64,000 nt of DNA from an uncultured Thermodesulfobacteriota bacterium (GCA_964457755.1 CAYWGC010000011.1:8320-72319); one strand, 5' to 3'. Shown: positions 19,608-47,328, numbered from the stretch's first letter. Notes: generated from the letters alone by a model not told the origin. Made by a program: numbers and translations.

Positions 19608-19672
19608 ACCACGAAGGCATGAAGGTCACGAAGTTGAAAAGCCTTTCTTCGTGACCTTCGTGCCTTCGTGGT
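19608..19672. repeat. Periodic-arm palindrome (26-bp arms, 1 mismatch)
   Basis: ACCACGAAGGCATGAAGGTCACGAAG ... CTTCGTGACCTTCGTGCCTTCGTGGT. Each arm is three copies of an 8-9-nt CACGAAG unit. Confidence 0.9.
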
Positions 19673-19731
19673 GAAAACGATTTTGACCTTTTCGACTTAA
19701 AAGTAACTATTCATAGACAAGAGACTATAAA

Positions 19732-20730
19732 TTGCCAGACAATCCCCTAATGATCCCCAATATCACTGAAAAACCCCAGGTTGTCGCCCTTTTTTCCCAA
19801 GGTTTGGACAGTATTCTAGCAATCAAAATTATCCAGCAACAGGGCCTCAAGGTTAAGGCGATAAAATTTATCAGCCCTTTCTTTGGTTATGAAATCAAAG
19901 ACAATGAGGTTGAATTCTGCGAGCAAGTCAAGACCTCTTATGACATTGATCTTAGCATCATCGATTTAACTGACGAATACCTGCAGATGCTGGCCGCGCC
20001 CCTTTATGGTTACGGTAAAAACTTCAATCCCTGCCTTGACTGTAAAATTATGATGCTCAACCAGGCCCGGATCGTGGCCGAAGCCTGGCAGGCAGATTGT
20101 ATTGTCACCGGTGAAGTCGTAGGCCAACGCCCCTTTTCGCAACGCCGCGACACCATGCGACGCATTGAGAAACTGAGCCTGACTGAAGGCCTCCTCCTGC
20201 GACCTTTAAGCGCTAAACTGCTAACCCCGAGCCAAGCCGAAGAATCGGGCCTGATTAATCGTGACTTGCTCTTCGATTTCAGCGGTCGCGGCCGCAAACC
20301 CCAGATGGCCCTGGCTGAGAAACTCGGTATCAGCAATTACCCGACTCCCGCAGGTGGCTGCCTGCTGACCGATCCGGGTTTTGCCAAACGAGTTAAAACG
20401 CTTTATCAGAAGGTTACGGCTCCCCCATCTGCTGCCGATATCAACCTTTTAAAATTCGGGCGTTTCTATCCTTTAAACGAGAGCTCTGATTTTGTTATTG
20501 TCGGCCGCCATCGTGACGACAACCAGCAACTTTTAAAAACGGCCGATAAGAGCCACTTCATTCTCCAATTGACCGAGATGGCCGGTCCCGTGGCAATTCT
20601 TAAAGGGGATAAAGCTGATCTCCCTTACGCTGCCGAAAAGCTCCGCCTCCACAGTAAAGCCAAAGAGCTGGCTTCAGTCAAAGTAAATTGGCGACGGGGA
20701 AGTGAATCAGGGGAGTTAATTGTCAAATGA
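19732..20730 (+). CDS. ThiI/MnmA-like tRNA sulfurtransferase-family PP-loop ATPase
   Basis: FSQGLDS PP-loop variant, GYGKNFNPCLDCK, TGEVVGQRPFSQ, GRGRKPQ, YPTPAGGCLLTD. Confidence 0.8.
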   Translation: MPDNPLMIPNITEKPQVVALFSQGLDSILAIKIIQQQGLKVKAIKFISPFFGYEIKDNEVEFCEQVKTSYDIDLSIIDLTDEYLQMLAAPLYGYGKNFNPCLDCKIMMLNQARIVAEAWQADCIVTGEVVGQRPFSQRRDTMRRIEKLSLTEGLLLRPLSAKLLTPSQAEESGLINRDLLFDFSGRGRKPQMALAEKLGISNYPTPAGGCLLTDPGFAKRVKTLYQKVTAPPSAADINLLKFGRFYPLNESSDFVIVGRHRDDNQQLLKTADKSHFILQLTEMAGPVAILKGDKADLPYAAEKLRLHSKAKELASVKVNWRRGSESGELIVK

Positions 20731-23435
20731 CAACTGACAACCAGCTACCAAAGATCAAAAAACTGACCCCGATGCTGCGGCAATATATGTCGGTCAAGGA
20801 GAAGCATGCCGACAAGCTGCTCCTTTTTAGGATGGGCGATTTCTATGAGATCTTTTTTGACGATGCCGCAACTGCGGCCCGAACTTTAAAAATCACCCTG
20901 ACCAGCCGCAACAAAAAGGATGAAGATGCGATCCCGATGTGCGGCTTTCCGCACCATGCCGCAACCGGTTATATCACGACCCTGGTCAATGCCGGCTATA
21001 AGGTTGTCGTCTGTGATCAGGTTGAAGATCCAAAACAGGCCAAAGGCCTTGTCCGCCGGGAGGTTACTAAAATTATCACGCCCGGGGTTAACCTGGAGAG
21101 TGACTGTTTAAACCCTGATCAGGACAACTTTCTGGCCGCAATCTCTTATCGGCAACAAAAACCGGAACTCTATGGCCTGGCCCTGCTTGATGCCAGTACC
21201 GGCAAATTCAGGGTCACGGAACTTGCTGACTTGGAGATGCTACTGGACGAACTGGGACGCTGTGAGCCGACTGAGATCCTGCTCCCGCCAGCCCGCTCCG
21301 ACCATGACCGTAATTGGCAGAATGAGATTCGCAACCAGTTTGCTCGAGCCCATTTTACCCTGCGTCCTGAAAACGAATCATTTTCTCCCGAAGCGGGCCG
21401 TAAACTCCTATGCCAACACTTTGGAACCCTCAATCTCGACGGTTTTGGGGGCCAGCATCTGGGCCCTGGTTGCGGTGCTGCCGGGGCCGCTTTAGCCTAC
21501 GCTAAAGAGACCCAGACCAATGCCGCTCTCAACCATATCCAGGGAATAACTATATTTCAACCATGCAGCTTCATGCAGATTGACCGCAATGTCATCTACA
21601 ACCTGGAGCTCTTAAGCACGATTCAAGAAAACCGCAAGCAGGGCAGTCTCTTAGGGGTTCTCGACCATTGTCAAACAAGTATGGGCAGTCGTCAGCTAAA
21701 AGAGTGGCTCCTCTTCCCACTCCTCGACAAAGAACTTATTGAAGAGCGTTTAGATGCCGTCCAGATTCTGCTCGAAGAGAAGCGCTGCCGCCGCCAACTT
21801 AGAGAGCGGCTTAAAAAGCTCTACGATCTTGACCGCCTCTGCGGCCGTCTGGCAGCGGCCAAAGCCACGGGCCGTGATCTCTTGAGTCTTAAAGACTCCT
21901 TGTCATTAATTCCTGAGATTAAACTTCTGCTCAGTGACCTGCCAATCCAACCAACCCTGATCAACCAAGCCTTACAAGGCCTGCATGAACTTAAGGAGTT
22001 GACCGCAAAGATAGAGCAATTTCTCTTACCCGAACAGCCAATCTCCATCAACGAAGGCAAACTGATTTGTGCTGGCATCGATAAGCAACTTGACGAGTTA
22101 CGGCAGATCAGCAAAAACGGCAAACAGTGGCTGATCGAGTATGAACAAGAGGAGAAGGAGAGGAGTGGTATCAACGGCCTTAAGGTCCGTTTCAACCGCG
22201 TTTTCGGCTATTACATAGAGGTCACCAAAAGAAACCTCGAACAGGTTCCCGAAGATTATCAGAGGCGCCAAACCTTAACTAATGCCGACCGCTTTATAAC
22301 CCCTCAGCTAAAAGAGTATGAAGAGAAGATATTAGGTGCGGAAGAGAAGATAAACAGTTTAGAGCATGAAATTTTTCTCTCCCTCCGCCAGGAAGCCGCG
22401 CTGGAAATCGGACGGATTCGCGAGTCGGCTTTGCGCCTGACCCTTTTTGATGTCTTAAGCAGTCTCGCCGAGGTTGCCGACGGACACCACTATTGCCGAC
22501 CTGAAATCACGAACGAGCAGCAGCTATTGGAGATCGAAGATGGCCGTCACCCGGTCATTGAAACATTAAGCGAAAACTTTGTTCCCAACGACACCTCTCT
22601 AAACAGTAAAAAAGAGCAGCTCTGGATTATCACCGGCCCCAATATGGCCGGAAAATCTACCTTCTTAAGACAGAACGGCCTCTTAGTCCTGATGGCGCAA
22701 ATGGGCAGTTTTGTGCCGGCCAAAACCGTCAAATCGAGCATCTTTGACCATATCTTCACACGCGTCGGGGCCTCCGATAACTTAAGTCGAGGACTTTCGA
22801 CATTTATGGTTGAGATGACTGAAACCGCCAGGATTCTGCATCAGGCAACCCCCAAAAGTCTGATTATTCTGGATGAGATCGGCCGCGGCACCAGCACCTT
22901 TGATGGTTTGAGTCTGGCTTGGGCGATCGCCGAAGATATCCATGAAAGGATTGGCGGCCTCACCCTCTTTGCGACCCACTACCATGAACTCGCCGAACTT
23001 GAATTAACCCAACCCAGAATCAAAAATTACAATGTCGCGGTTCAGCAACGAGCCGACGGCATTACCTTTTTGCGACGCATCATTAAAGGAGCAACCAACC
23101 ACAGTTATGGAATTGAGGTTGCCAAACTGGCTGGGATTCCCCAGTCGGTGCTGGAAAAAGCGCAAAAAATTCTGACCAATCTGGAAGCCGCCGAGATTGC
23201 GGCCGGGGGCAATCTGAGAATGACCGGTAAAAGCATTCTCAGCGACCGACCAGCGGCACAGCAAAGCGGTTACCTGCCCTTTTTAGAGCCGCCGCCAGCC
23301 CCTCAGGCTCATAACCCATCCGAGATTAAAGTTATTGAACTCATAAAAAAACAGGACCTTAACCGGACAACTCCGATCAAGGCCCTGACGACACTTGAAA
23401 AACTACAAAAAATATTGAGCGGGGGTTTTTCTTAA
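20727..23435 (+). CDS. mutS: DNA mismatch repair protein MutS
   Basis: TPMLRQY, FRMGDFYE, PMCGFPHH, TGPNMAGKSTF, STFMVEM, DEIGRGTST, FATHYHEL. Confidence 0.99.
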   Translation: MTTDNQLPKIKKLTPMLRQYMSVKEKHADKLLLFRMGDFYEIFFDDAATAARTLKITLTSRNKKDEDAIPMCGFPHHAATGYITTLVNAGYKVVVCDQVEDPKQAKGLVRREVTKIITPGVNLESDCLNPDQDNFLAAISYRQQKPELYGLALLDASTGKFRVTELADLEMLLDELGRCEPTEILLPPARSDHDRNWQNEIRNQFARAHFTLRPENESFSPEAGRKLLCQHFGTLNLDGFGGQHLGPGCGAAGAALAYAKETQTNAALNHIQGITIFQPCSFMQIDRNVIYNLELLSTIQENRKQGSLLGVLDHCQTSMGSRQLKEWLLFPLLDKELIEERLDAVQILLEEKRCRRQLRERLKKLYDLDRLCGRLAAAKATGRDLLSLKDSLSLIPEIKLLLSDLPIQPTLINQALQGLHELKELTAKIEQFLLPEQPISINEGKLICAGIDKQLDELRQISKNGKQWLIEYEQEEKERSGINGLKVRFNRVFGYYIEVTKRNLEQVPEDYQRRQTLTNADRFITPQLKEYEEKILGAEEKINSLEHEIFLSLRQEAALEIGRIRESALRLTLFDVLSSLAEVADGHHYCRPEITNEQQLLEIEDGRHPVIETLSENFVPNDTSLNSKKEQLWIITGPNMAGKSTFLRQNGLLVLMAQMGSFVPAKTVKSSIFDHIFTRVGASDNLSRGLSTFMVEMTETARILHQATPKSLIILDEIGRGTSTFDGLSLAWAIAEDIHERIGGLTLFATHYHELAELELTQPRIKNYNVAVQQRADGITFLRRIIKGATNHSYGIEVAKLAGIPQSVLEKAQKILTNLEAAEIAAGGNLRMTGKSILSDRPAAQQSGYLPFLEPPPAPQAHNPSEIKVIELIKKQDLNRTTPIKALTTLEKLQKILSGGFS

Positions 23436-23438
23436 AAA

Positions 23439-23867
23439 TTATTTGAGACTATCTCGATGCGCCTTCTCTTGGGCTGCGAAATAGGCAAAATTTGTTTTAT
23501 CGAGACTCGTAATAAAATCATTCTGAACCTTGTCCAACTCTTTGCGCACCGAACAAAATTCCATCCGATTACAAACATTGTAGCCGTCCAAACAGATATT
23601 AAGCTTGATATCGCCCTCGACCGCTTCGACCACATCACGAAGGGTCACCTCTTCCGGTTTTCGAGCCATCGAATAACCGCCTTTTTTGCCACGATGCGAT
23701 ATCACAATTCCGGCCCGACTCAAACTCTGAAAAATACGGGCCAGAAAACCAACCGGCACATCCATCTCCCGAGCGACTTCAGGAATTACCACAATTGAAC
23801 CCTGGGACTGCATCGACATATAGACAATTCCACGAATCGCATAATCTGATGCTCTCGTCAACTTCAT
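23439..23867 (-). CDS. Rrf2 family transcriptional regulator (three Cys, likely Fe-S)
   Basis: MKLTRASDYAIR, SHRGKKGGY, VVEAVEG, CLDGYNVCNRMEFC. Confidence 0.92.
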   Translation of the reverse strand: MKLTRASDYAIRGIVYMSMQSQGSIVVIPEVAREMDVPVGFLARIFQSLSRAGIVISHRGKKGGYSMARKPEEVTLRDVVEAVEGDIKLNICLDGYNVCNRMEFCSVRKELDKVQNDFITSLDKTNFAYFAAQEKAHRDSLK

Positions 23868-23937
23868 AATAAATAACCATCCTAAGCTTAGAATTTAAAG
23901 TTGACAATTATTATCGCCTTAAACCGACATTGTCAAG

Positions 23938-24711
23938 CTATTTATTCGGACTATTAAGATTATAAAGGTACTTTAACCCATGCAGAGTAAGAAATTCATC
24001 CACATAATCGATAATCATGGTCTCTCGATCAACGGTTTTAGCAAGACCTCCAGTGGCAACCACCAGAAGATCCAGCTTTAATTCATCCTTGATCCTCTGA
24101 ACCAGACCTTCAACTAGAGCCAGGTAACCATAAACAATGCCCGACTGCATGGCGTGAACCGTATTCTTGCCGACCACCTCCGGGGGCCTGATTAATTCAA
24201 CCCGCGGCAATTTTGAGGCCCTCTGACAAAGCGCCTCCATCGAGATATGCATGCCAGGAGCGATCACCCCACCCAGATACTCACCCTTTAGCGAAACACA
24301 ATCGAAGGTGGTAGCCGTGCCAAAATCTATAATCACCATCGCCTGTTTGTGTTTTTGATAGGCCGCGACCGCATTAACAATACGATCGGCCCCAACTTCA
24401 CGTGGATTATCAAGCAGAATCGGCAGCCCCGTCTTAATTCCAGGACCAACTACCAACGGTCGAAAATGAAAGTATTTACTGGCCAGACCAAGAAGTTCAT
24501 TGAGAACCGGGGGTACGACACAGGAAATCATCATGCCGGAGACCTCTTGGCGATCTGCGTCCAAAGAACGCAAAAAACCCTGCAGCAGGATTATATACTC
24601 ATCCCGGGTCCGGTGGGTAGAGGTTGAAATGCGCCAATTATCGAGAAGATTATCACCCTGGTAGATCCCCAAAACTGTATGTGTATTGCCAACATCAATT
24701 ACTACTATCAT
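23938..24711 (-). CDS. coaX: Type III pantothenate kinase
   Basis: IDVGNT, VGADRI, IDFGTATT, GGVIAPG, ATGG. Confidence 0.97.
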   Translation of the reverse strand: MIVVIDVGNTHTVLGIYQGDNLLDNWRISTSTHRTRDEYIILLQGFLRSLDADRQEVSGMMISCVVPPVLNELLGLASKYFHFRPLVVGPGIKTGLPILLDNPREVGADRIVNAVAAYQKHKQAMVIIDFGTATTFDCVSLKGEYLGGVIAPGMHISMEALCQRASKLPRVELIRPPEVVGKNTVHAMQSGIVYGYLALVEGLVQRIKDELKLDLLVVATGGLAKTVDRETMIIDYVDEFLTLHGLKYLYNLNSPNK

Positions 24712-24722
24712 CTCATGAAATC

Positions 24723-25496
24723 CTAATTTACTCTCTTCTCAAGCCAGGCTTCACCAGCTGAAAATGCCGCTGTCTTGCCATCTCTAGTGGTTGCCACCAG
24801 GCGACCAAAAGCATCTATAGATTGAGCTCGACAGGCCATTTTATGATCCCCGGAGTGGATACTTATATCCTTCCCGGCAAGAAAAAAATTGCGGTTGATC
24901 AGATCCGCTATCGACCCCTGTAAACCCTCCCGGCAAAATTCATCCACAAATAAAGCCATCTCGTGCAAAATTCTACCCAGCAGTTCGGAAAGATCAAAGC
25001 ACCGGCCACTCTCACAATTTAAAGAGGTAACCTGGTTCTGTAATTCAAGAGGGAAATCATTAAGTGAAGCGTTAACGTTGAGACCAACCCCGACAATAAC
25101 AAACTCGGCCTGATCCTGACCAGGCTTCATCTCAGACAAAATCCCTGCCATTTTTCGGCCCTGACAGTAGAGATCATTGGGCCATTTAATTGTTAATCCA
25201 GGACAATCTTCGGCAAGGGCCTGCCAGAGAGCCGCAGCCGTCACCAAAGAGAGTTGCGGGGCCTGATCGATTTTCAGATGAGGACGTAAGAGCACCGAAA
25301 AATAAAGGTTTAAACCTGTCGGCGAATGCCATTGCCGACCCCGCCGTCCCCGTCCTGAAAGCTGTTGTTCGGCAACCACGACGGTTCCCTGCGGCGCCCC
25401 ATCCAGAGCTTGCTGCCAGAGATAAGCACTAGTTGAATCCAGAGTTGCAAAGCTTAAAACGTCACTCCCCCAGGGAGTGCGAAAAGACTTTATCAC
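24723..25496 (-). CDS. birA: Biotin--acetyl-CoA-carboxylase ligase (no N-terminal HTH)
   Basis: DSTS, QLSGRGRRGRQW, KWPNDLY, KMAGILSE, GVGLNVN. Confidence 0.95.
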   Translation of the reverse strand: MIKSFRTPWGSDVLSFATLDSTSAYLWQQALDGAPQGTVVVAEQQLSGRGRRGRQWHSPTGLNLYFSVLLRPHLKIDQAPQLSLVTAAALWQALAEDCPGLTIKWPNDLYCQGRKMAGILSEMKPGQDQAEFVIVGVGLNVNASLNDFPLELQNQVTSLNCESGRCFDLSELLGRILHEMALFVDEFCREGLQGSIADLINRNFFLAGKDISIHSGDHKMACRAQSIDAFGRLVATTRDGKTAAFSAGEAWLEKRVN

Positions 25497-29994: not shown

Positions 29995-31161
29995 GTGATT
30001 AATTTGCAGGACGGAAATTTTTCCCATAAAGCAGCAGGTTTGAAATCATTTATGGCGATGGATATTCTTGAACGGGCCCAGGAACTTGAACGCAAAGGGC
30101 GTTCAATTATCCATCTGGCGGTCGGCGAACCAGACTTTCCAACCCCGCAAGCTATTAAAGATACAGCTATAAAAGCTCTTAAAGCTGACAAAACCCACTA
30201 CACTCACAGCCTCGGGACCTTTGAGTTGCGCCAGACCATTGCTGATTACTATCTGAAACGCTATAAAGTCAAGATCCAAGCAGAGCAAATCCTTGTCACC
30301 TCCGGCACCTCTCCGGCATTGATGCTGGCCTGTGCCGCGCTACTTAATCCCGGCGACAAGGTCATCGTCAGCGACCCCGGTTACGCCTGTTACAGCAACT
30401 TTGTCACCTACTGTGACGGCACCCCGCAACTCGTTAACGTCTACGAAGATAACGGTTTCCAATTCGACCCGCAAACCTTGAAAAAAAGAATCTCGCCGCA
30501 AACCAAGGCGATCTTGATTAATTCACCGGCCAACCCGACCGGCAACCTGCTGGAAGCTGACCGCATGCGAGAACTGGCCGCTCTTGATCTGCCGATTCTC
30601 TCGGATGAGATCTACCACGGCCTGGTCTATGAAGGCGAGGAGCACTCAATCCTTGAGTACACCGATAACGCTTTTGTTTTTAATGGTTTTTCAAAACTCT
30701 ACGCCATGACCGGCTGGCGCTTAGGTTACCTGATCGCCCCACCCCGTTACATGCGCACACTCCAAACCCTGCAGCAGAACTTCATGATCTCAGCCAGCCA
30801 TTTTGGCCAGGAAGCTGCAATTACCGCTCTGACCTCTCCAGAGGTTCCCAAAGATCTGGAGAAGATGCTGAAAATTTACGATGAACGGCGCCGCTTTATG
30901 CTGAAACGGGTGCGCGAAATTGGTTTACAGGTGGAGGTGGAGCCGACAGGGGCATTTTACATTTTTGCCAATGCCAAAAAGTTTACCTCAGACTCCTACA
31001 ATTTCGCTTTTGAGATTCTTGAAAAAGCCGGCGTCGGGGTCACTCCAGGCATCGATTTCGGCAAAAACGGCGAAGGTTTCCTGCGTTTTTCTTATGCCAA
31101 CTCACTGGAAAATATCGCTGAAGGGATGAATCGCCTGGAAGACTTCTTTGACCTTAAGTGA
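29995..31161 (+). CDS. Class I/II PLP-dependent aminotransferase (aspartate aminotransferase-like)
   Basis: GEPDFPTP, YTHSLG, NSPANPTG, SDEIYHGL, GFSKLYAMTGWRLG, PGIDFG, RFSYA. Confidence 0.93.
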   Translation: MINLQDGNFSHKAAGLKSFMAMDILERAQELERKGRSIIHLAVGEPDFPTPQAIKDTAIKALKADKTHYTHSLGTFELRQTIADYYLKRYKVKIQAEQILVTSGTSPALMLACAALLNPGDKVIVSDPGYACYSNFVTYCDGTPQLVNVYEDNGFQFDPQTLKKRISPQTKAILINSPANPTGNLLEADRMRELAALDLPILSDEIYHGLVYEGEEHSILEYTDNAFVFNGFSKLYAMTGWRLGYLIAPPRYMRTLQTLQQNFMISASHFGQEAAITALTSPEVPKDLEKMLKIYDERRRFMLKRVREIGLQVEVEPTGAFYIFANAKKFTSDSYNFAFEILEKAGVGVTPGIDFGKNGEGFLRFSYANSLENIAEGMNRLEDFFDLK

Positions 31162-31207
31162 AAACCAGGTTTACCCTTTTCTTAAAATCCCAAAAAGTAG
31201 TGGTGAA

Positions 31208-31275
31208 CTTTGCTTCGCCCTCATAAACGGGGTCAAAGCTGGGGTGCTAACGCACCTTTTACCAGCAATGACCCC
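31208..31275 (+). repeat. REP-like element between convergent genes
   Basis: CTTTGCTTCGCCCT followed by GGGGTCA...TGACCCC stem. Confidence 0.7.
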
Positions 31276-31316
31276 AATCCCGGCAGTTCGAAGAAAGCCA
31301 AAGCTTAATATTCACA

Positions 31317-31375
31317 ACCACAGAGAGTTAAATAAGGCTTGCTTTTCTCTGTGAACTCTGTGCCCTCTGTGGTGA
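31317..31375. repeat. Periodic-arm palindrome with truncated left arm
   Basis: ACCACAGAG(AG) ... CTCTGTG-AA-CTCTGTG-CC-CTCTGTG-GTGA (period 9). Confidence 0.8.
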
Positions 31376-31389
31376 TATCTAATCCTATC

Positions 31390-33174
31390 TTATCTTTTTC
31401 CAGGTAACGGAAAAGCCAGCAAAAAGGTATTACCGGAAAGCTGCAAAAGATCATCGCCGCGCTTGACCATGGCGCAGACCAGCTCATCTTTAACAATCTG
31501 CATGCCCTGCACCGGCCCGCCAATGACTCCGGTCAACTTCTGGACGACAAAACCAGTGTTGCTCTTTTTGATCATTTTAACATGACCCTTATTAAGAAAA
31601 CCATATTCACCTAAAGCGGTCGACATACCGGATTCATTGTCGATTAAAATAATCTCTTTTACCCCGTCACCATCAAAATCATAAACTCTCAAAGGGGAAC
31701 TGATCTCCCTCTTTTCTACATAGCTGACTTTCGGTGTACCAACCTCATACTGAACATCATGCAGAGAACCAGCAAGACGCTCATCACTGACCCAAAGACG
31801 TTTACTGCCCTGATAGATTTCCAGAAAGTTCTGTTTATTGATAAAACAGAGCTCTTTGATTTGGTCATTATTGATATCCTCATAGACGGCACCCGGCAAG
31901 GCAAAACCCATAGGCACAGAAAATTGTCCTACTGAAGAAACCTTACTGCCCTTAAATTTTAAAATAAAAACTGAACTATCGAAAAGTACTTCTTCAGCGA
32001 ATCCCTGCCCGACGAAATAGACCCCCTTATCGGCCACAGATCTACCCCCTAAAAGGCTCATAACAAAAGGAATGTTATCGGCTACAATTCGATACTTACC
32101 TTTTTCTTTAGCGATCACAAAAGATGAGAAACCATCTTCGGTCTCTTTGAAGGTATTAACCATGATCTCATCTTTGCGATCACCAGTGATATCGCCAACC
32201 TGAATATTAACTATATCACCCCATTTATCAAAATGATAACGGTAGCTGTATTTCAATCCCCGCTCAGTAATCTCATAAACATAAATTTTTTCGCCATCAG
32301 TAAAGACCATCTCGGCAATCCCGTCATTATCAAGGTCACCGACATCCATACCCTTAACCACCAGACTGACTTCAGCCATCTGACGGTATCTGGTCAAAAT
32401 CGCCTTACCTGCTTCACTCGTCGAAAGGCCATACTTACCCTTAGCGCTGCTACCTTTAAAAGTCCCGGTAAAAGCGCCAGAAACTTCATTTTGACCTGAA
32501 AATTGCGCCGCCGGCCAAGCTGCAACCAACTCCTGGTCACCATTATAGAAAGCCAGATTAGGGCCTTCATTAACGACATAGAGATCATAGCCCAAAGCTC
32601 CGGGGCCTCCCGGCCGACGCAGAGCCTGGCGGTGTTGCAAACCAACCCCATAGTCAGCCCAGTTAAGCTGCGGCAGAGACTCACGGATGCGCGAAAAGAT
32701 TTCTATGCCATTGCCATTAAGATCAATAAACAATGCCGCCATTGAGGCAAAACGTTTAACCAAAGCCCCTCTATTTAGTGGAACCCTAAGATAGCGGTTA
32801 AGAGGCCGACAAATGGCATAATCAGCTTCAACTCGCATCACCCTAAGAGTTGCGACAAGCCTCTCCTGGGCCCCCAGGGAACGCCCCGTGACCGGGTGAA
32901 TCATAGGCACTCCCGGTTGCAGAACTGCAAAAAGGTCACCAACCCCAACCCCCTTCTTGCGGCCGCAATCAACTACAACTCCCTGGGGCCCAACTTGCAC
33001 CAAGTAACCGGATAAAGCCTGAAAACGAGTCATTGGATCAGCGGCAGAAACTGGCAATGAGGCCGCCAGAAAGGCTACAGACAAAAAGCCGAGGATAACC
33101 CGAACTCTCAATTTATATGAATAATATTTGCTCTTCAACACATCCCCCACAACTCTAACCCCAAACCCGGACAA
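31390..33174 (-). CDS. Exported FG-GAP/VCBS-repeat protein with N-terminal FlgT-C-like domain
   Basis: Signal-like segment (AASLPVSAA). VVVDCGRKKGVGVGDLF..IHPVTG.LG is FlgT-C-like. Repeats GDLDNDGIAE, GDITGDRKDE, EDINNDQIKE, YDFDGDGVKE. Confidence 0.8.
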   Translation of the reverse strand: MSGFGVRVVGDVLKSKYYSYKLRVRVILGFLSVAFLAASLPVSAADPMTRFQALSGYLVQVGPQGVVVDCGRKKGVGVGDLFAVLQPGVPMIHPVTGRSLGAQERLVATLRVMRVEADYAICRPLNRYLRVPLNRGALVKRFASMAALFIDLNGNGIEIFSRIRESLPQLNWADYGVGLQHRQALRRPGGPGALGYDLYVVNEGPNLAFYNGDQELVAAWPAAQFSGQNEVSGAFTGTFKGSSAKGKYGLSTSEAGKAILTRYRQMAEVSLVVKGMDVGDLDNDGIAEMVFTDGEKIYVYEITERGLKYSYRYHFDKWGDIVNIQVGDITGDRKDEIMVNTFKETEDGFSSFVIAKEKGKYRIVADNIPFVMSLLGGRSVADKGVYFVGQGFAEEVLFDSSVFILKFKGSKVSSVGQFSVPMGFALPGAVYEDINNDQIKELCFINKQNFLEIYQGSKRLWVSDERLAGSLHDVQYEVGTPKVSYVEKREISSPLRVYDFDGDGVKEIILIDNESGMSTALGEYGFLNKGHVKMIKKSNTGFVVQKLTGVIGGPVQGMQIVKDELVCAMVKRGDDLLQLSGNTFLLAFPLPGKR

Positions 33175-33185: not shown

Positions 33186-33256
33186 ATTTGTGTTAATTTG
33201 TGTCCATTTGTGGTTAAAAATGCGTAAACCACAAATGGACACAAATTAACACAGAT
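33186..33256. repeat. Periodic-arm palindrome (30-bp arms, 1 mismatch)
   Basis: ATTTGTGTTAATTTGTGTCCATTTGTGGTT ... AACCACAAATGGACACAAATTAACACAGAT; ATTTGTG unit at period 10. Confidence 0.9.
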
Positions 33257-33330: not shown

Positions 33331-33359
33331 AAAAAGGGGAAGCGGTAAACCGCTTCCCC
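33331..33359 (-). terminator. Rho-independent terminator of the porin gene
   Basis: GGGGAAGCGG-TAAA-CCGCTTCCCC 10-bp stem, followed on the minus strand by a T tract. Confidence 0.85.
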
Positions 33360-33387
33360 CTTAGAATTCATTTAGAAAGTAAATCCT

Positions 33388-39746: not shown

Positions 39747-39770
39747 AATCAATCAAAGCAATCTATCTAT

Positions 39771-41577: not shown

Positions 41578-43685
41578 GAGTTATCATCCCAATTTAAAGG
41601 AGTAGTAAAGACAACCTTGGATCCCTGACCAGACTCTGAAAAAACCTCAAGGGAACCACCGACCAGAGCAGCCCTTTCGCGCATCCCCGCGACTCCAAGC
41701 CCGGCTGTTTCCGGCAATTGTTCCAGGGTAAAACCGCAGCCATCGTCCTCGATAACAACGCTGAGTAAAGATTTTTCGACTGCCAGAGAGATGGTCACCT
41801 GATCAGCCTTTGCATGGCGGGCAATATTGGTCAAGGCTTCCTGCGCTATACGATATGCCGCAGTCGCCAGAACCTCACTTAAATGAGGTATCGCGCCATC
41901 TGATTTGAAGGCACAAGTAATCCCGAGCCGCCGTTCAAAATCGGCCGCATACCACTCTAAGGCTTCAACCAGACCCAGATCATCAAGAATACCGGGCCGC
42001 AAGCGCAGAGCAATACTCCTGACCTCGTCAATCGTATCGTCAATCAAAAAACCCATCATCGAGGCCCGATCAGCGGCTTTTGCATCATGCGGACGTAATC
42101 TTTCCGCCAACCAGACCGTCTCTATCCGCAAAGCGGTGAGAACCTGACCGAGCTCATCATGCAGCCCTCGGGCGATGGCAGCCCGCTCCTTCTCTTGGCC
42201 CGCCATAATGCTGCCTGAAAGACGCTGTAATTCAGCCGTTCTTTTTTGCACCTGACACTCCAGATCTCGGGTATAAAGACTAAGTTTTTCCTGGGCCTGT
42301 TTAAGAGCCTCCTCAGCTTTTTTATGGTCACTTATATCGATCGAAACCGCTAACGAACGAACAATCACCCCATCTTGATCGCGATCACCAATCGCCGAAA
42401 GCAGAACATCCATCAAAGTCCCATCTTTACAAAGATATTGATAAGCGATATCTTTACAGAATCCAATACGAAAAAACTCCGGTAAAACCTCTTCCTGAGC
42501 ATAACGTCCTGAGTCAGGTGTCAGAAAATCGAGCAACGGCTTACCAACCACCTCATCCCGCCCATACCCCAAGACCTCAAGCCAGTGATCACTGACGCTA
42601 ACCAGACATCCAGAGAGGTTGATTGAGTGGAGCATGGCCGGCGTATTATGATAGATCGAACGGTAGCGCTCTTCACTCTCCCGCAAAGCCTGTTCGATAT
42701 TCTTGCGCTGAAAAATCTCAACACTGGCTTTACGATAGAGGAAAAAGACGGCAAAAGCAACAAGGATGCAAAGGGTTATCACCGTCGGTACGGTAACTCG
42801 AACCAGAGGGTCAATAACGACCTTGTAAATCGCCTTAAGACTGCGCAGATGAACGACATGCCAACCCGGAAAACCATCGATCTCTAAACGGTTAACAAAA
42901 TATCTATTACCATCTTTATCGATCGCATAGTGTTCACCATCCTGCTGCAAACCAGTCCAGGTCCAGGGCCCGCGACCAAACTGACGGGATTCGACGAGCC
43001 CACGCTGTTCCCGCTCAGAACATTGCCAGAGCAGTTGAAAGAGCCAGGCTTTACGATTAGCAATAAAAATCAAACCGTGAGGATCGGTGACCACGACGAT
43101 CTCATCCCGACTCTGACCCAGTTTTTTCTCAATCTGCTCAAGTGATGCCTTGATAACCGCAACGCCCGACGGCAACTCCCCCGAGTTCGTAAACACCGGA
43201 TAACTGCAATAGACCCCCCGTTTACCAGAAGTCGTGCCCAGCGCTAGGTAGGATGCCGCAACCCCATCTACAGCCCCCTGAAAATAGGGACGGAAAGCAA
43301 AATTTTTACCTACAAAACTATCACTTTCATGACGATTACTGGAAGCAATCGTAACCCCGTCATAATTCATCAGATAGCAGACATCAGCCCTTAAAGTACT
43401 CTTGAAATGATCCAGCAAAGTATTGGTTTGAAACTCTGCCTCAGCTCCACCATCATGCAAAAATTCAACTAACTGCGGCATACCGGCCAGGGTCCGAACC
43501 GGTTTGATATTTTCCGAAAGAAAAGTGGAAAGATTTTTCTGGGTAATTTCAACCCGGGTAACGGCTTGGTGCTCAGCTTCTTTAAAAGCCGCTTTTTTCA
43601 AAGAGGTGTAATAAAGATAGCCTCCGGTTGCCGCCGACAGGAAAGCGAGCAGAGATAAAACAAGAAAGATTAGACGCAGTTTCAT
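41574..43685 (-). CDS. Sensor histidine kinase: DctB-like dCache, PAS, HisKA_3 (NarX-type) kinase
   Basis: Two TM helices. Periplasmic SFVGKNFAFRPYF (DctB-like). PAS domain. ERAAIARGLHDELGQ H-box, EALTNIARH, DDGCGF, GLGVAGMRER. Confidence 0.92.
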   Translation of the reverse strand: MKLRLIFLVLSLLAFLSAATGGYLYYTSLKKAAFKEAEHQAVTRVEITQKNLSTFLSENIKPVRTLAGMPQLVEFLHDGGAEAEFQTNTLLDHFKSTLRADVCYLMNYDGVTIASSNRHESDSFVGKNFAFRPYFQGAVDGVAASYLALGTTSGKRGVYCSYPVFTNSGELPSGVAVIKASLEQIEKKLGQSRDEIVVVTDPHGLIFIANRKAWLFQLLWQCSEREQRGLVESRQFGRGPWTWTGLQQDGEHYAIDKDGNRYFVNRLEIDGFPGWHVVHLRSLKAIYKVVIDPLVRVTVPTVITLCILVAFAVFFLYRKASVEIFQRKNIEQALRESEERYRSIYHNTPAMLHSINLSGCLVSVSDHWLEVLGYGRDEVVGKPLLDFLTPDSGRYAQEEVLPEFFRIGFCKDIAYQYLCKDGTLMDVLLSAIGDRDQDGVIVRSLAVSIDISDHKKAEEALKQAQEKLSLYTRDLECQVQKRTAELQRLSGSIMAGQEKERAAIARGLHDELGQVLTALRIETVWLAERLRPHDAKAADRASMMGFLIDDTIDEVRSIALRLRPGILDDLGLVEALEWYAADFERRLGITCAFKSDGAIPHLSEVLATAAYRIAQEALTNIARHAKADQVTISLAVEKSLLSVVIEDDGCGFTLEQLPETAGLGVAGMRERAALVGGSLEVFSESGQGSKVVFTTPLNWDDNS

Positions 43686-43804
43686 TTAAGAGAAGATCTC
43701 AGATGACAATTGATTTTTTCTATAAACTAGACTAGAAAGCTGTGCCGACAAGAAGTAACATGGGCAAACATGCCTGTCAACTACAACACTGTGAAACATA
43801 TCTT

Positions 43805-44329
43805 ATGAAAAAAGTTCCTCTCTTAGGTTTTATCGGGCACAGCAACAGCGGAAAAACAACCATACTGACAGCTCTGATTGCTGCCCTGAACGCTCAGGGC
43901 CTGAAGGTCGGCGCTGTCAAACACCATCACCGTTCATTTAACATTGATCACGAGGGCAAGGACAGTCACCGCTTCACCTTGGCCGGAGCCCAAAAAACCA
44001 TTATCACCGGACCTCAACAAACTGCTCTGGTTGAGAAAACCCGTGAGCAATCATCCCTTGATGAGTTGGCCGTAAACTACCTTCAGGATCTTGACCTGAT
44101 CCTGGTTGAAGGCTTTAAAAAAAGCTCGATCCCCAAAATCGAAGTCCAGCGCCAGGCCCTCGACCTGCCCCTGCTGAGCCGGGGAGAGCATCACGATTCT
44201 AATCTGATTGCGGTAATCAGCGACGACCCGCAATCCCTCGATGTCCCACTCTTTGAACCTCAGGATATTGCCGCTATAAACATTTTTATCTGCAAATATT
44301 TTACCCTGAGCCCAACCCCGCAACCATGA
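43805..44329 (+). CDS. mobB: Molybdopterin-guanine dinucleotide biosynthesis protein B
   Basis: GHSNSGKTT, VKHHH, GKDSHRF, LVEGFK. Probable start ATG 43805. Confidence 0.95.
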   Translation: MKKVPLLGFIGHSNSGKTTILTALIAALNAQGLKVGAVKHHHRSFNIDHEGKDSHRFTLAGAQKTIITGPQQTALVEKTREQSSLDELAVNYLQDLDLILVEGFKKSSIPKIEVQRQALDLPLLSRGEHHDSNLIAVISDDPQSLDVPLFEPQDIAAINIFICKYFTLSPTPQP

Positions 44330-44937
44330 CCCGAGAACTGTCAGCCAAATTTCCTTTAAGTGGTGCGATACTGGCGGGAGGCCGGGCCCAGCGCTTTGGT
44401 GGAGAAGATAAAACCCAGCTCAAACTGGGCCGGGAAAGCCTTTTCCAACGAACTCTTAACATTCTTAACTCTTTTTGCTCTGAAACCCTGATCAGCAGCA
44501 ACACCCTCGCCCAACATCCCGAAGGCCGCATCGTTCCCGACCAAAAAGATGGACAAGGACCTCTGGGAGCAATCTACAGTTGTCTTCTGGCAGCCCGCAA
44601 CCCCTATCTGATGATCGTTGCCGGTGACATGCCTTTTATTACCCTTTCAGCTCTGACTAAACTATGGCTTGAAAGAGAGGACTTCGATGTCATTATTCCA
44701 AGATCACCGGACGGCATGCAACCTTTAGCGGCCATCTACAAACAGAGCTGCATTCCTTTCATCGCGGCACAATTAAACAAGAACAACTTTAAAATCAGAG
44801 GTTTTTTTGAAAATGTCCAAGTCAAAATTATAACCTGCTCAGCTTTTCCTGACATTTACCCGGATAATACCTTTCTCAATATCAATTCACCCGACGACCT
44901 GCAAAGAGCCCGCGCCCTCTACCAGAAAACAAATTAA
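44326..44937 (+). CDS. mobA: Molybdenum cofactor guanylyltransferase
   Basis: ILAGGRAQRFGGEDK, GPLGAI, GDMPF, QPLAAIY, NINSPDD. Confidence 0.95.
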   Translation: MTRELSAKFPLSGAILAGGRAQRFGGEDKTQLKLGRESLFQRTLNILNSFCSETLISSNTLAQHPEGRIVPDQKDGQGPLGAIYSCLLAARNPYLMIVAGDMPFITLSALTKLWLEREDFDVIIPRSPDGMQPLAAIYKQSCIPFIAAQLNKNNFKIRGFFENVQVKIITCSAFPDIYPDNTFLNINSPDDLQRARALYQKTN

Positions 44938-44984
44938 AAGTTTGAATTTTCTACCGTTATCTGCTATGAGACGCGCGCCGTAAG

Positions 44985-45013
44985 GCCTTAATCGGGCGTT
45001 GCCCGATTAAGGC
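44985..45013. repeat. Perfect 13-bp hairpin
   Basis: GCCTTAATCGGGC-GTT-GCCCGATTAAGGC. Confidence 0.8.
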
Positions 45014-45071
45014 AGTTCCCAGTCGCCAGTCATCAGTATTTTTGTTACAAACGACTGACCACTGGCGACTG
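45013..45071. repeat. Heptamer-periodic palindrome
   Basis: CAGTTCC-CAGTCGC-CAGTCAT-CAGT ... ACTGACCACTGGCGACTG; arms pair at 16/18. Confidence 0.75.
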
Positions 45072-45162
45072 TGAAAATAATTTCATAACCTTCTCTAAAT
45101 TTGACTTTTAACCTCTCTTTATTAAAATCAAACAACAGCTAAACAAAAGGACAACCAAACAC

Positions 45163-46845
45163 GTGCAACAAGTCTTCAGCGACACCCAATTTACCCAACT
45201 TGACATTCCGAAAGAGGTTCTTGCAGGAATCACCGCTGCCGGTTACAAATTCTGTACCCCGGTCCAGGAGGAGGTCCTCCCGCAAACCTTAAAAGGTGAC
45301 AATATTGCCGCCCAATCGCAAACCGGTACCGGCAAAACGGCAACGTTCCTCATCACCCTTCTAACCCGCCTGCTTCGAAGCCAGACAAACGGCAACAAAA
45401 ACCGGTCCAATGAAAACACCTCGCGACCGCGCGCCCTGATCCTGGCACCTACCCGTGAGCTGGCAGTCCAGATCGGCGTCGAAGCTGAAACCCTGGCTCA
45501 AGCTTCCGGAATCAATTTTCAGACAATCTACGGCGGAGTTGACTATGAAAAACAACGCCTGGCCTTGCAATACGATCAAATTGATGTTGTGGTCGCAACC
45601 CCGGGCCGCCTGATCGACTACATGAAGCAGAAAGTTATCTTCTTAGATGACATCGAAGTATTGGTTATTGACGAGGCCGACCGGATGTTTGACATGGGTT
45701 TCATCCCTGATGTCCGCTGGTTGCTGAAACGCTGTCCGACGACCGAAAAGCGCCAGTCCCTGCTTTTTTCCGCGACCCTCTCCGAAAAGGTCATGGAACT
45801 TGCCTATGAACATCTCAATATCAGCGAAGCCACCAATATCAATCCGGGACAGGTTACAGTTGATAAGATCGAACAGAGCCTCTACCACGTTGGTAAACAT
45901 GAAAAGATGGCTCTACTCTTTGGCCTTATGCAAGTGCAAAAACCTGAGCGCAGCCTGATTTTCACCAACACCAAAAGAATGGCTGAGATCCTTGAAGATT
46001 ACCTTAAAGCTAACGGCTATGCTGCAGCCTGTTTGACCGGTGACGTTCCGCAAAAAAAACGCCAGGCCACCCTGGAACGTTTTAAAAATAAGAAGCTCAA
46101 CATCCTGATTGCCACCGATGTCGCCTCCAGAGGGCTGCATATCGAAGCCGTCTCCCATGTTTTCAACTATGACATGCCCCAAGATGCCGAAGACTATGTC
46201 CATCGTATCGGACGCACAGCGCGCATCGGAGCCACTGGTATTGCTATCGCATTAGCCGGCGAAGAGGATGCCTTCTATATTGAAGCGATCGAAAAACTAG
46301 CCGGTAAAATCCCGGTCATCTGGGCCGAAGATGAAGATTTTGTCCGTGATTTTAAACGCCCAAGCCGACGCTCTCCCAGTTCTTCAAACCCCCGTTCGCG
46401 CACACCTGAACGGGGCAAGCCAGGAGATTCAAGAAGGCGTAGCAGCAGCTCAAGTTCACCGCAAAGAAAACCAGCCCGCTCGAATGACCCCAAAAAAGAG
46501 AGCAAGAGTGAAACAACGAGCCGAGGCCCTGGTTCAGATACACGTCCAGACAAAAGCCGTCCCCAGACGACTCGACGAAGCGGTAGTGCGACCAGCAAGA
46601 AAGAATCTTCAAAGTCACCAGAAAACCGATCCAGCCGGCGGCCGCCGCGTCCGACATCGGCCCCTGAGAAAAGCAGCCGCCCTGCGGACAGCAAGCACAC
46701 AGAGCCGAAAAAAGCGACCTCAGGTGAGCAAAAAGTTAATCCACCTAAACCACCAGTAAAAAGCCAAACACCCCAAAAACAACCAGAAAATAAGAAAGGG
46801 CTTTTAGGTAAAATTGTCGGTCTCTTTCAGGGAAATAAAAAATAG
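45163..46845 (+). CDS. DEAD-box RNA helicase (RhlB-like) with long basic Ser/Arg/Pro-rich C-terminal tail
   Basis: Q motif TPVQ, QTGTGKT, PTRELA, DEAD, SAT, HRIGRTAR. Confidence 0.95.
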   Translation: MQQVFSDTQFTQLDIPKEVLAGITAAGYKFCTPVQEEVLPQTLKGDNIAAQSQTGTGKTATFLITLLTRLLRSQTNGNKNRSNENTSRPRALILAPTRELAVQIGVEAETLAQASGINFQTIYGGVDYEKQRLALQYDQIDVVVATPGRLIDYMKQKVIFLDDIEVLVIDEADRMFDMGFIPDVRWLLKRCPTTEKRQSLLFSATLSEKVMELAYEHLNISEATNINPGQVTVDKIEQSLYHVGKHEKMALLFGLMQVQKPERSLIFTNTKRMAEILEDYLKANGYAAACLTGDVPQKKRQATLERFKNKKLNILIATDVASRGLHIEAVSHVFNYDMPQDAEDYVHRIGRTARIGATGIAIALAGEEDAFYIEAIEKLAGKIPVIWAEDEDFVRDFKRPSRRSPSSSNPRSRTPERGKPGDSRRRSSSSSSPQRKPARSNDPKKESKSETTSRGPGSDTRPDKSRPQTTRRSGSATSKKESSKSPENRSSRRPPRPTSAPEKSSRPADSKHTEPKKATSGEQKVNPPKPPVKSQTPQKQPENKKGLLGKIVGLFQGNKK

Positions 46846-46848
46846 ATT

Positions 46849-47157
46849 ATGAGCTCGGCCAAAAAACCCATCTATCGAGTCCATTTCAAGACCGAAGATC
46901 GAAGTTACTCACTCTTAGCCCACTCGGTCAAAGAGTCTCATTTTTTTGGTTTTATTGAAGTTTCTGAAATCATCTTTGAAGATGTTAATCGCTTGATTAT
47001 ATCTCCAGAAGATGAGGCCCTGCGCAAGGAGTTTGCCAAAACTGAGAGCATCTCGATCCCCCACCAGTACCTGCGGCGCATCGACCGGCTCTCTGACAGT
47101 GAAGATATCGGGGTCTCATATCTCAAAATCGCTGAAAGTAAAAAGAAAACTGCATAA
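46849..47157 (+). CDS. DUF1820-like small protein
   Basis: IYRVHF..FFGFIEVSEIIF..ISPEDEALRKEF..SIPHQYLRRID pattern; directly follows the helicase. Confidence 0.7.
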   Translation: MSSAKKPIYRVHFKTEDRSYSLLAHSVKESHFFGFIEVSEIIFEDVNRLIISPEDEALRKEFAKTESISIPHQYLRRIDRLSDSEDIGVSYLKIAESKKKTA

Positions 47158-47256
47158 CCTGACCGAACTGATTTTAAATTAACTCAATTTTCTGACTTGA
47201 GTTAACGCCTTCATATTTAAAACAAAAGAAACTGGAAGAATGTTTGAATTGCGGTT

Positions 47257-47328
47257 TTTCTCTGCGTCTTTGCGTCTCTGCGGGAAAATGCTTTTTATCT
47301 CCCGCAGAGACGCAAAGACGCAGAGAAA
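47257..47328. repeat. Periodic-arm palindrome (perfect 29-bp arms, 14-nt loop)
   Basis: TTTCTCTGCGTCTTTGCGTCTCTGCGGGA ... TCCCGCAGAGACGCAAAGACGCAGAGAAA; period 8. Confidence 0.92.

What the first reader, a model, noticed from the sequence alone, without database searches (positions are those of the whole stretch)
19608..47328. Family of palindromes whose arms are three tandem 8-10-nt units: possible empty cassettes of a mobile system
Seen: four intergenic elements (19608-19672, 31317-31375, 33186-33256, 47257-47328) differ in sequence but share one grammar. Each arm is (A/C)CC + three copies of a CACGAAG / CACAGAG / CACAAAT / CGCAGAG unit, and arms pair almost perfectly over 26-30 bp. Two have the CC end outward and two have it facing the loop. 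Different units with near-perfect pairing imply selection on the structure or concerted copying of both arms. They lack terminator U-tracts and are not CRISPR. From recollection (unverified), similar arms flank GxxExxY-family genes in other anaerobe genomes. Inference: outward copies are cassettes that lost their gene, inward copies are junctions of adjacent cassettes, and together they are footprints of a poorly described mobile or recombination system.
Basis: partly seen in the sequence, partly recalled or inferred. Interest (0 to 1): 0.68.

Follow-up and report, generated by a model that had tools for sequence, protein, structure and literature searches.

The report
Gene-less copies of nuclease-cassette hairpins
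The hairpins are real, recently gained, multi-copy selfish repeats: gene-less relatives of small cassettes found across many bacterial phyla, in which the same tandem-unit arms enclose a GxxExxY nuclease gene, built like the protein-coding intervening sequences of 23S rRNA.

Summary
Three of the four elements are as described: 26-32 bp near-perfect stems whose arms are three tandem 8-10 nt units (fold z-scores -11 to -12; no shuffle gave a stem over 18 bp). The fourth (31317-31375) has lost two units of its left arm. Two more members were missed (45016-45075; weak 1566-1613).

Of 77 GxxExxY loci from many phyla, 48 have a forward CRCRRAG array upstream and a reverse array downstream, against 0 of 136 control windows. 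Termini follow one consensus (TTNAC|CAC) with no target duplication. Four-helix-bundle (23S rRNA IVS protein) genes carry analogous arms. The published Coxiella IVS has a 28-bp stem, three tandem heptamers and RNase III cleavage.

The window's copies are not static. E1-E4 are absent from orthologous spacers in relatives (70-87% protein identity), and E5 is decaying there. Other contigs of the same depth in the source metagenome carry further E1-, E3- and E4-like copies.

For the inward forms the loop is conserved between copies, and no outer arms exist in the window. They therefore look like repeat units in their own right, possibly circular permutations, rather than junctions of adjacent cassettes.

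How they move, and whether RNase III cuts them, is inferred and not shown.

The parts
19605..19675 (.). E1. Outward-type hairpin with arms ACC+CACGAAGG/CATGAAGGT/CACGAAG and a 13-nt loop. It lies between TsaC and a ThiI-like gene, which run in the same direction.
   Evidence: RNA fold -50 kcal/mol, z -11. Its arms are almost identical to those flanking GxxExxY genes in L197 and L159. It is absent from the same spacer in L226, L227 and L228. At least two further copies lie on contigs of 44-48x depth in run X1.
31317..31375 (.). E2. Outward-type element with CACAGAG units. The right arm has three units and the left arm is truncated to one. It lies between the convergent aminotransferase gene and the 594-aa FG-GAP gene.
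   Evidence: The fold is weak (-18.6 kcal/mol, z -1.9). It is absent from the 25-40 nt spacer in L209-L211.
33186..33256 (.). E3. Inward-type hairpin with CACAAAT units. Two complete termini (GTGGTTAA / TAAACCAC) face a 7-11 nt loop. It lies in the leader of the 594-aa gene, downstream of the porin gene's own canonical terminator (33333-33362).
   Evidence: Fold -41.5 kcal/mol, z -10.8. It is absent in L209 and L210. A full copy including the loop lies on a 19.6-kb contig of 44x depth, and there are partial copies.
47254..47331 (.). E4. Inward-type hairpin with CGCAGAG/CGCAAAG units, a 29-32 bp perfect stem and a 10-14 nt loop. It lies between the DUF1820 and DUF8180 genes, upstream of tyrS.
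   Evidence: Fold -61.8 kcal/mol, z -12. It is absent in L212, L213 and L215. At least six other contigs at 40-53x carry copies, several with the same loop.
45016..45075 (.). E5 (not in the finding). Outward-type hairpin with period-7 CAGTCNN units, 81% complementary. It lies between mobA and the RhlB-like helicase gene.
   Evidence: Fold -27.9 kcal/mol, z -5.4. It is present but decayed in L212 and L213, and absent in L215.
1566..1613 (.). E6 (not in the finding). A weak candidate with CACAAAA-type units and a 17/20 bp stem.
   Evidence: Fold -18.3 kcal/mol, z -4.2. Membership is uncertain.

Best explanation
The elements are gene-less, non-autonomous copies of a widespread family of small selfish palindromic elements. 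Full-length members carry one small gene between two inverted arms. The gene is most often a GxxExxY protein, a minimal Cas4/RecB-like PD-(D/E)xK nuclease. Each arm is 2-4 tandem CRCRRAG units ending in TTNAC|CAC.

This is the architecture of the ORF-bearing 23S rRNA intervening sequences, here sitting in ordinary intergenic spacers.

Shown: the shared grammar and termini, the link to the GxxExxY gene, multiple copies in the source genome, absence from orthologous sites in relatives, decay of an older copy, and nesting in other genomes.

Inferred:
1. Copies spread at the DNA level without target duplication. This would go through a hairpin or cruciform, and possibly a circular intermediate. 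The inward forms E3 and E4 would then be circular permutations, with right end, junction and left end now forming the hairpin.
2. A family nuclease encoded elsewhere in the genome supplies the activity in trans.
3. When transcribed, the 26-32 bp perfect stems are cut by RNase III, as in the Coxiella IVS. That would cut the insert out of host transcripts and make insertion between co-transcribed genes tolerable.
For: Link between arms and gene:
- 48 of 77 GxxExxY loci from Bacteroidota, Chloroflexota, Planctomycetota, Desulfobacterota, Cyanobacteria, Verrucomicrobiota and Proteobacteria have a forward array upstream and a reverse array downstream. None of 136 displaced control windows do. 71 of 77 have an array in at least one flank.
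- The arms of L197 and L159 match E1's unit, and those of L196 and L206 match E4's.
- The terminal consensus TTNAC|CACRRAG holds at both ends of 160 pairs, and the flanks show no direct-repeat signal.
- Gene-less copies with the same termini and inserts of 2-500 nt are common. 69 outward pairs were found in 120 contigs, and some elements sit inside others (L068, L119, L017, L078).

Analogous cassettes and the published relative:
- Four-helix-bundle (S23p) genes have analogous inverted tandem-unit arms.
- The Coxiella IVS has a 28-bp stem, three tandem heptamers and RNase III cleavage within the stem (PMC4990558).

The window's own copies:
- E1-E4 are missing from orthologous spacers.
- E5 is decaying in relatives.
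- About 55 kb of relatives' DNA holds no periodic hairpin.
- Contigs of matching depth in run X1 hold further E1-, E3- and E4-like copies, and the loop is conserved for E3 and E4.
- A second inward pair with a shared loop occurs in L081.

The cargo protein and its setting:
- D...ExK...QxxxY is invariant. The AF2 model has pLDDT 95.8, and its best fold matches are Cas4 SSO0001 and lambda exonuclease.
- GxxExxY genes point the same way as the upstream neighbour in 47 of 56 loci, which fits read-through transcription.
Against: - No GxxExxY or four-helix-bundle gene lies in the 64-kb window or in the 120 contigs that carry CACAGAG elements. Action in trans is therefore unproven.
- The Bacteroides cassette P0123 sits at one fixed site (radA | FAD protein) in all 24 contigs read, so filled cassettes can be long-term residents.
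- No RNA data exist for the window, so transcription and RNase III cutting are untested.
- No precise filled-versus-empty boundary could be defined, because the relatives available are only 70-87% identical in protein.
- That the extra copies belong to the same genome rests on matching depth alone.
- Unit type tracks protein similarity only weakly (58.4% against 56.4%).
Confidence: 0.6

Rival explanations
1. One reading: an integron-like cassette system. Outward hairpins would be cassettes that lost their gene, and inward hairpins would be junctions between neighbouring cassettes, shuffled by a site-specific recombinase.
For: Some GxxExxY genes lie between hairpins rather than inside one. The layout is R-arm, gene, then L-arm, insert, R-arm in L138, L139, L145 and L148. 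Tandem and adjacent elements exist in L028 and L075. E3 and E4 contain two complete termini facing each other.
Against: No partner arrays for E3 or E4 exist anywhere in the window. Their loops are conserved between dispersed copies. The elements are scattered singly among housekeeping genes, with no integrase or recombinase among the ORFs scanned. There are no gene remnants inside the gene-less copies. The stems are perfect, without the extrahelical bases typical of attC sites.
Confidence: 0.17
2. They are host-selected RNA structures with no mobility: mRNA stabilisers, processing sites, or terminators that do not need a U-tract.
For: All lie in intergenic spacers that are probably transcribed, and they form very stable stems. 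REP-like hairpins are known to stabilise upstream mRNA (established knowledge).
Against: They are absent from the same spacers in every relative examined. E5 is decaying rather than being maintained by compensatory changes. There is no U-tract, whereas this organism uses canonical terminators, for example 33333-33362, which is conserved in L209 and L210. The same arms flank a selfish-looking gene across phyla.
Confidence: 0.1
3. They are palindromes formed locally by replication slippage plus template switching, or operator-like arrays of protein-binding sites, with no relation to a mobile family.
For: Units within one element are homogenised, and both arms carry the same variants. In E4, for example, the middle unit is CGCAAAG in both arms. 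Slippage and fold-back copying can produce that pattern.
Against: One terminal consensus is shared across phyla. There are near-identical arms around homologous genes in unrelated bacteria. Dispersed copies in one genome share their loops. No regulator gene lies alongside.
Confidence: 0.08

Closest known systems
ORF-containing intervening sequences (IVS) of 23S rRNA (Coxiella, Leptospira, Brucella, Xanthomonas; S23p / four-helix-bundle ORF)
   Same: Both have a stem of about 28 bp formed by terminal inverted repeats, and tandem 7-nt units in the arm (three GACAGAT units in Coxiella). Both come with a small ORF or nothing in the loop and behave as selfish elements of unknown mobility. The Coxiella stem is cut by RNase III (PMC4990558). 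Four-helix-bundle genes outside rRNA carry the same kind of arms.
   Different: The window's elements lie in spacers between protein-coding genes, not in helix 25 or 45 of 23S rRNA. Their units are of the CRCRRAG class that goes with GxxExxY nuclease genes rather than with S23p. No RNase III data exist for them. Two of them are inside-out (inward).
REP / REPIN elements with RAYT transposases
   Same: Both are short intergenic palindromes present in many copies per genome, with sequence families that differ between genomes but share one grammar. In both, a small gene is flanked by the same hairpins, and there is no target duplication.
   Different: There is no GTAG head, and the arms are tandem arrays. 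The associated gene is a PD-(D/E)xK nuclease or a four-helix-bundle protein, not an HUH/Y1 transposase. No RAYT gene was seen among the ORFs scanned.
Cyanobacterial STRR (short tandemly repeated repetitive) heptamer arrays
   Same: Both are tandem 7-nt units in intergenic DNA. On Nostoc and Chloroflexota DNA such arrays flank four-helix-bundle genes in inverted orientation (L216, L134). E5 has period 7.
   Different: STRR arrays were described as direct tandem arrays, usually longer, and only in cyanobacteria. That description rests on my own knowledge, because the literature search returned only passing mentions.
Integron attC sites and gene cassettes
   Same: In both, hairpins of variable sequence but conserved structure bound small promoter-less genes. 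Some GxxExxY genes lie between two hairpins.
   Different: There is no integrase, attI site or array in the window. The stems are perfect, without extrahelical bases, and are built of tandem units. The elements are dispersed singly.

Membership tests
Tandem-unit palindromic elements associated with GxxExxY genes (defined here) | Arms of 2-4 tandem CRCRRAG units with a period of 8-10 nt, in inverted orientation | tested here: met
   E1 (CACGAAG), E2 (CACAGAG, right arm only) and E4 (CGCAGAG/CGCAAAG) fit. E3 (CACAAAT) fits except for its last base. E5 has a different unit class.
Tandem-unit palindromic elements associated with GxxExxY genes (defined here) | Terminal consensus TTNAC|CAC at the outer end of each arm | tested here: met
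   E1 has TTAAC|CAC and GTG|GTGAA. E3 has GTG|GTTAA and TAAAC|CAC, facing the loop. E2 and E4 match only in part.
Tandem-unit palindromic elements associated with GxxExxY genes (defined here) | A GxxExxY gene between the arms, or elsewhere in the same genome | tested here: inconclusive
   None lies in the 64-kb window. The rest of the genome could not be searched.
23S rRNA intervening sequence | Inserted in helix 25 or 45 of a 23S rRNA gene | tested here: not met
   The window has no rRNA and no Rfam hit. All the elements lie between protein-coding genes.
23S rRNA intervening sequence | A long terminal stem that RNase III cleaves out of the transcript | not testable with these tools
   Stems of 26-32 bp are predicted, but no RNA runs are available for the window.
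REP/REPIN-RAYT | Multi-copy intergenic palindromes | tested here: met
   Extra copies lie on contigs of matching depth in run X1.
REP/REPIN-RAYT | A GTAG-type conserved head and an associated Y1/HUH transposase | tested here: not met
   The head is TTNAC|CAC. The associated genes are PF13366 or four-helix-bundle genes, and no transposase was found in the window.
Integron attC / cassette array | An integron integrase and a contiguous array of cassettes, each ending in an attC with extrahelical bases | tested here: not met
   The neighbours are housekeeping genes and no integrase was found. The stems are perfect.
CRISPR array | Direct repeats regularly spaced by unique spacers | tested here: not met
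   These are single inverted pairs with no direct-repeat array.
Intrinsic terminator | A GC-rich stem followed by a U-tract | tested here: not met
   The stems are followed by GAAAA (E1) or AAAGG (E4). A canonical terminator lies separately at 33333-33362.
MITE | Terminal inverted repeats plus a target-site duplication | tested here: not met
   Inverted termini are present, but direct identity of the flanks is 0.25-0.30, which is random.

The most novel reading that the evidence does not exclude
These hairpins, the GxxExxY and four-helix-bundle cassettes, cyanobacterial STRR arrays and 23S rRNA intervening sequences would all be one undescribed class of bacterial mobile element. Its members would be bounded by inverted tandem-unit arms and mobilised by a minimal Cas4/RecB-like nuclease through a hairpin or circular intermediate. 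The inward hairpins E3 and E4 would be integrated circle junctions. RNase III would excise the elements from host transcripts, making them harmless.
Probability: 0.3. Interest if true: 0.85.

Novelty: new variant of a known kind. Interest (0 to 1): 0.68.

Why it matters
The origin and mobility of 23S rRNA intervening sequences have been open questions since about 1990. So has the function of two very large families of small proteins (GxxExxY/PF13366 and the four-helix-bundle S23p/Avd-like family).

The window's hairpins lead to one simple rule that ties these together: inverted arms built of tandem units, with a shared terminus, around one small gene or around nothing. That rule gives concrete substrates for biochemistry, namely the arms as DNA hairpin, cruciform or dsRNA. 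It also gives culturable carriers, such as the Bacteroides radA-linked cassette.

In practical terms, these elements break short-read assemblies at every copy. They also give rise to spurious ORF extensions such as the 'SSRLRV' tail in L128.

None of the full-text searches run here turned up a paper describing the arms around GxxExxY genes.

Tried and rejected
- Rfam at gathering threshold on the whole window, Rfam at E-value threshold on 31100-31420, and a tRNA scan: nothing.
- Exact-protein look-up of the window's TyrS: not on record.
- RNA runs for the window: none.
- A first attempt at search for related loci with a 9-sequence GxxExxY alignment failed for lack of a conserved stretch. It was repeated with 3 close sequences.
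- Sequence search of GxxExxY against the PDB: no hit. The fold search gave only generic Cas4/lambda-exonuclease similarity (TM about 0.5), so no specific activity such as junction resolvase can be claimed.
- tblastn for GxxExxY and four-helix-bundle genes in the window and in the 120 contigs with CACAGAG elements: none, apart from a four-helix-bundle gene in L134.
- Search for distant partner arms of E3 and E4 in the window: none.
- Target-site duplication: none.
- Co-variation of unit type with protein sequence: statistically detectable but tiny, and explainable by co-inheritance.
- Test for different contexts of one identical Bacteroides cassette protein: always the same site.
- Literature searches for GxxExxY, PF13366, STRR, IVS-like terms and arm sequences: no description of the family.
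- The terminator, CRISPR, attC and plain MITE readings were rejected on the features listed in the membership test.


Full report
**1. The observation**

Reading the four sites and scanning for inverted repeats shows that three of them are the three longest inverted repeats in the window.
- E1, 19605-19675: 27 of 29 bp paired, units CACGAAGG/CATGAAGGT/CACGAAG.
- E3, 33186-33256: 29 of 30 bp paired, CACAAAT units with a period of 10.
- E4, 47257-47328: 29 of 29 bp paired, extendable to 47254-47331, units CGCAGAG-A-CGCAAAG-A-CGCAGAG.

Folded as RNA they give -50, -41.5 and -61.8 kcal/mol, with z-scores of -11.0, -10.8 and -12.0. In 20 dinucleotide-preserving shuffles of the window no stem exceeded 18 pairs. 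Tandem-unit arrays number 16, against 0-7 in shuffles.

E2 (31317-31375) is only half of what was described. Its right arm has three CTCTGTG units, but its left arm keeps a single unit, and the fold is weak (z -1.9).

Two members were missed. E5 at 45016-45075 has period-7 CAGTCNN units (z -5.4). A weak E6 lies at 1566-1613.

The outward/inward distinction is real and cannot be removed by choosing the other strand. E1, E2 and E5 read 5'-ACCAC...GTGGT-3'. In E3 and E4 those ends face the loop.

All the elements are intergenic, between housekeeping genes:
- E1: TsaC | ThiI-like gene
- E2: aminotransferase | a 594-aa FG-GAP protein gene
- E3: that same gene | a porin gene
- E5: MobA | RhlB-like helicase
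- E4: DUF1820 | DUF8180-TyrS

None has a U-tract. The porin gene has its own canonical terminator at 33333-33362, conserved in relatives. There are no Rfam or tRNA hits.

The window comes from a marine metagenome. Its nearest named relatives are deltaproteobacterial and Geobacter-like MAGs.

**2. The family**

In these contigs, 69 pairs of a forward array followed by a reverse array lie 2-500 nt apart, with strikingly constant ends (tcacCACAGAG...CTCTGTGgtga) and unrelated inserts. Only four short pairs are in the inward order. Elements of one unit type sit inside elements of another (L068, L119, L017, L078).

Over 160 pairs the terminal consensus is TTNAC|CACRRAG at both ends. The flanks show no direct-repeat signal, with identity of 0.25-0.30.

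**3. The gene link**

I wrote a consensus-like GxxExxY sequence from memory. It scored 147 bits against TIGR04256 and found real genes on plasmids.
- In Bacteroides finegoldii the gene lies between tCACCACAGAGGACGCAGAGGACACGGAG and CTCTGTGACCTCTGTGTCCTCTGTGGTGa (L126).
- Bernardetia (L004) and Sphingomonas (L128, inserted between fabD and fabG) are similar.
- Gemmatirosa has a periodic hairpin next to the gene.

A scan of one genome per species returned 581 relatives, of which the best 80 were kept. They come from Bacteroidota, Chloroflexota, Planctomycetota, Desulfobacterota, Cyanobacteria, Ignavibacteria, Verrucomicrobiota and Proteobacteria, at 50-73% identity to the query.
- 48 of the 77 loci with usable flanks have a forward CRCRRAG array upstream and a reverse array downstream.
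- 71 of 77 have an array in at least one flank.
- None of 136 displaced control windows has the pair.
- The arms of L197 and L159 are almost those of E1, and the arms of L196 and L206 resemble E4's.

The protein keeps D...ExK...QxxxY invariant. It folds with pLDDT 95.8 and most resembles Cas4 SSO0001 and lambda exonuclease. The family is very large: 7978 of the 8000 scored candidates had E <= 1e-10, and all listed hits carry PF13366.

The genes point the same way as the upstream neighbour in 47 of 56 loci.

In a minority of loci the gene lies between hairpins rather than inside one (L138, L139, L145, L148).

**4. A second cargo and the published relative**

Four-helix-bundle (S23p, '23S rRNA IVS protein') genes on plasmids and in L134 are flanked by tandem 7-10 nt arrays of other unit types. 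The arrays are inverted in Nostoc, Azospirillum, Riemerella and a Chloroflexota MAG, and direct in two other cases.

The Coxiella burnetii IVS is described as follows (PMC4990558):
- a 428-nt selfish element with a 28-bp terminal stem;
- three tandem GACAGAT heptamers ahead of the S23p ORF;
- RNase III cleavage within the stem;
- origin and mobility stated to be unknown.

This is the closest described relative. Full-text searches for GxxExxY, PF13366, IVS-like terms and the arm sequences themselves found no description of the family.

**5. Are the window's copies static?**

No. Orthologous loci were fetched for every site.
- **E2 and E3.** Three relatives whose 594-aa protein is about 70% identical keep the porin terminator and a conserved stretch after it. 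They lack E3, and they have a 25-40 nt spacer where the window has E2.
- **E4 and E5.** Relatives whose helicase is 87%, 82% and 77% identical keep the gene order MobB-MobA-RhlB-DUF1820-DUF8180-TyrS. None has E4, and two have spacers of only 25 and 63 nt. E5 is present but degraded in the two closer relatives and absent in the third.
- **E1.** Relatives at 83%, 80% and 75% lack it. One has a 14-nt spacer, and in others the two genes are fused.

About 55 kb of DNA from these relatives holds no periodic hairpin.

**6. Copy number in the source genome**

Laying the Logan contigs of the metagenome run on the window shows that the assembly breaks at E1, E2 and E4. Other contigs of the same depth (40-53x, against 45-50x for the window) carry similar sequences.
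- **E4-like:** a 12.9-kb contig matches 47248-47335, loop included, with 7 differences. At least five further contigs carry copies.
- **E3-like:** a 19.6-kb contig matches 33186-33253, loop included, and there are partial copies.
- **E1-like:** a 7.7-kb contig and a 0.8-kb contig.

One loose end reads GGAAAAATGCTTTTAATCTCCCGCAAAGAC. That is an E4 variant with one unit fewer and nearly the same loop.

So each element belongs to its own small dispersed family. For the inward forms the loop travels with the arms. That these copies lie in the same genome is inferred from depth alone.

**7. What the inward forms are**

In E3 and E4 two complete termini face each other across 7-14 nt. This is what a junction of a right end with a left end looks like. 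However, there are no cognate outer arms anywhere in the window, and the loops are shared between copies. L081 elsewhere holds two inward copies with one loop.

The outer edges of E3 and E4 (TTTTT / AAA) resemble the inner, loop-side edges of outward elements.

The simplest reading is that they are circular permutations of a mini-element. An excised circle would carry a right-end/left-end junction, and that circle would have reopened in its former loop. This is inference.

**8. Mechanism**

Shown: family membership, the gene link, recent gain, decay of an older copy, multiple copies, and the absence of target duplication.

Inferred, with my estimates:
- Mobilisation in trans by a family nuclease acting on DNA hairpins or cruciforms: about 0.35.
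- RNase III cleavage of the transcribed 26-32 bp stems, which would make insertion between co-transcribed genes harmless: about 0.5. This is by analogy with the Coxiella IVS and with the known length requirement of RNase III.

Against rapid mobility, one Bacteroides cassette sits at a single site in all 24 contigs read. No nuclease, transposase or integrase gene is in the window.

**9. Verdict**

The recollection about GxxExxY genes is right and now has numbers behind it. 'Footprints of a poorly described mobile system' is the best reading. 'Lost their gene' and 'junctions of adjacent cassettes' are not supported for these copies.

The elements are a new variant of a known kind: IVS-like and REP-like selfish hairpins. 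They point to a larger family that none of the literature searches here found described.

Noticed in passing
window 31203-31290: A different repeat of about 90 nt (TTGCTTCGCCCTCATAAACGGGG...CCAGCAATGACCCCAATCCCGGCAGTTCG) lies next to E2. Its depth in the metagenome run is about 1200, against 45 for its surroundings, and there is a 'goes back 90' joint. The same repeat occupies the TsaC|ThiI-like spacer of relative L226, and a fragment lies after its ThiI-like gene. It has no Rfam hit.
   Followed up: partly
window 18935-20730; P0277, P0278: TsaC and the ThiI-like protein are fused into one 561-566 aa protein in some relatives. They are separated by only 14 nt in L227, against 164 nt (with E1) in the window.
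   Followed up: partly
L212 8599-8656: The 87% relative has a 25-bp perfect, non-periodic hairpin in the spacer where the window has E4. The same spacer has therefore been hit by a different palindrome.
   Followed up: no
L134 1440-2960: In one Chloroflexota MAG a GxxExxY cassette (CRCRRAG arms) and a four-helix-bundle cassette (GTGGGTA x8 / TACCCAC x3 arms) lie 700 nt apart. Each is wedged between host genes. Unit class goes with cargo class.
   Followed up: partly
L138, L139, L145, L148 (around the gene at 1501 or 147 or 959): The GxxExxY gene lies between hairpins (R-arm, gene, then L-arm, insert, R-arm). In L145 the insert plus R-arm is repeated directly on both sides, as in a cassette array or after recombination between two hairpins.
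   Followed up: partly
L028 5767-6094: Three gene-less elements stand in tandem with a 120-nt period.
   Followed up: no
L128 580-1008: The annotated Sphingomonas GxxExxY CDS reads through the right arm, giving a spurious C-terminal tail (...SSRLRVNQRIGG). Tandem-unit arms probably inflate many ORF calls.
   Followed up: no
window 33333-33362: A canonical intrinsic terminator (GGGGAAGCGGT..ACCGCTTCCCC followed by a T-run) follows the porin gene and is conserved in L209 and L210. This organism therefore uses ordinary terminators.
   Followed up: yes
L125, L127, L217, L219: Some GxxExxY and four-helix-bundle genes are flanked by direct rather than inverted repeats or arrays. In Pseudanabaena the gene sits between cas6 and cas4.
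   Followed up: no
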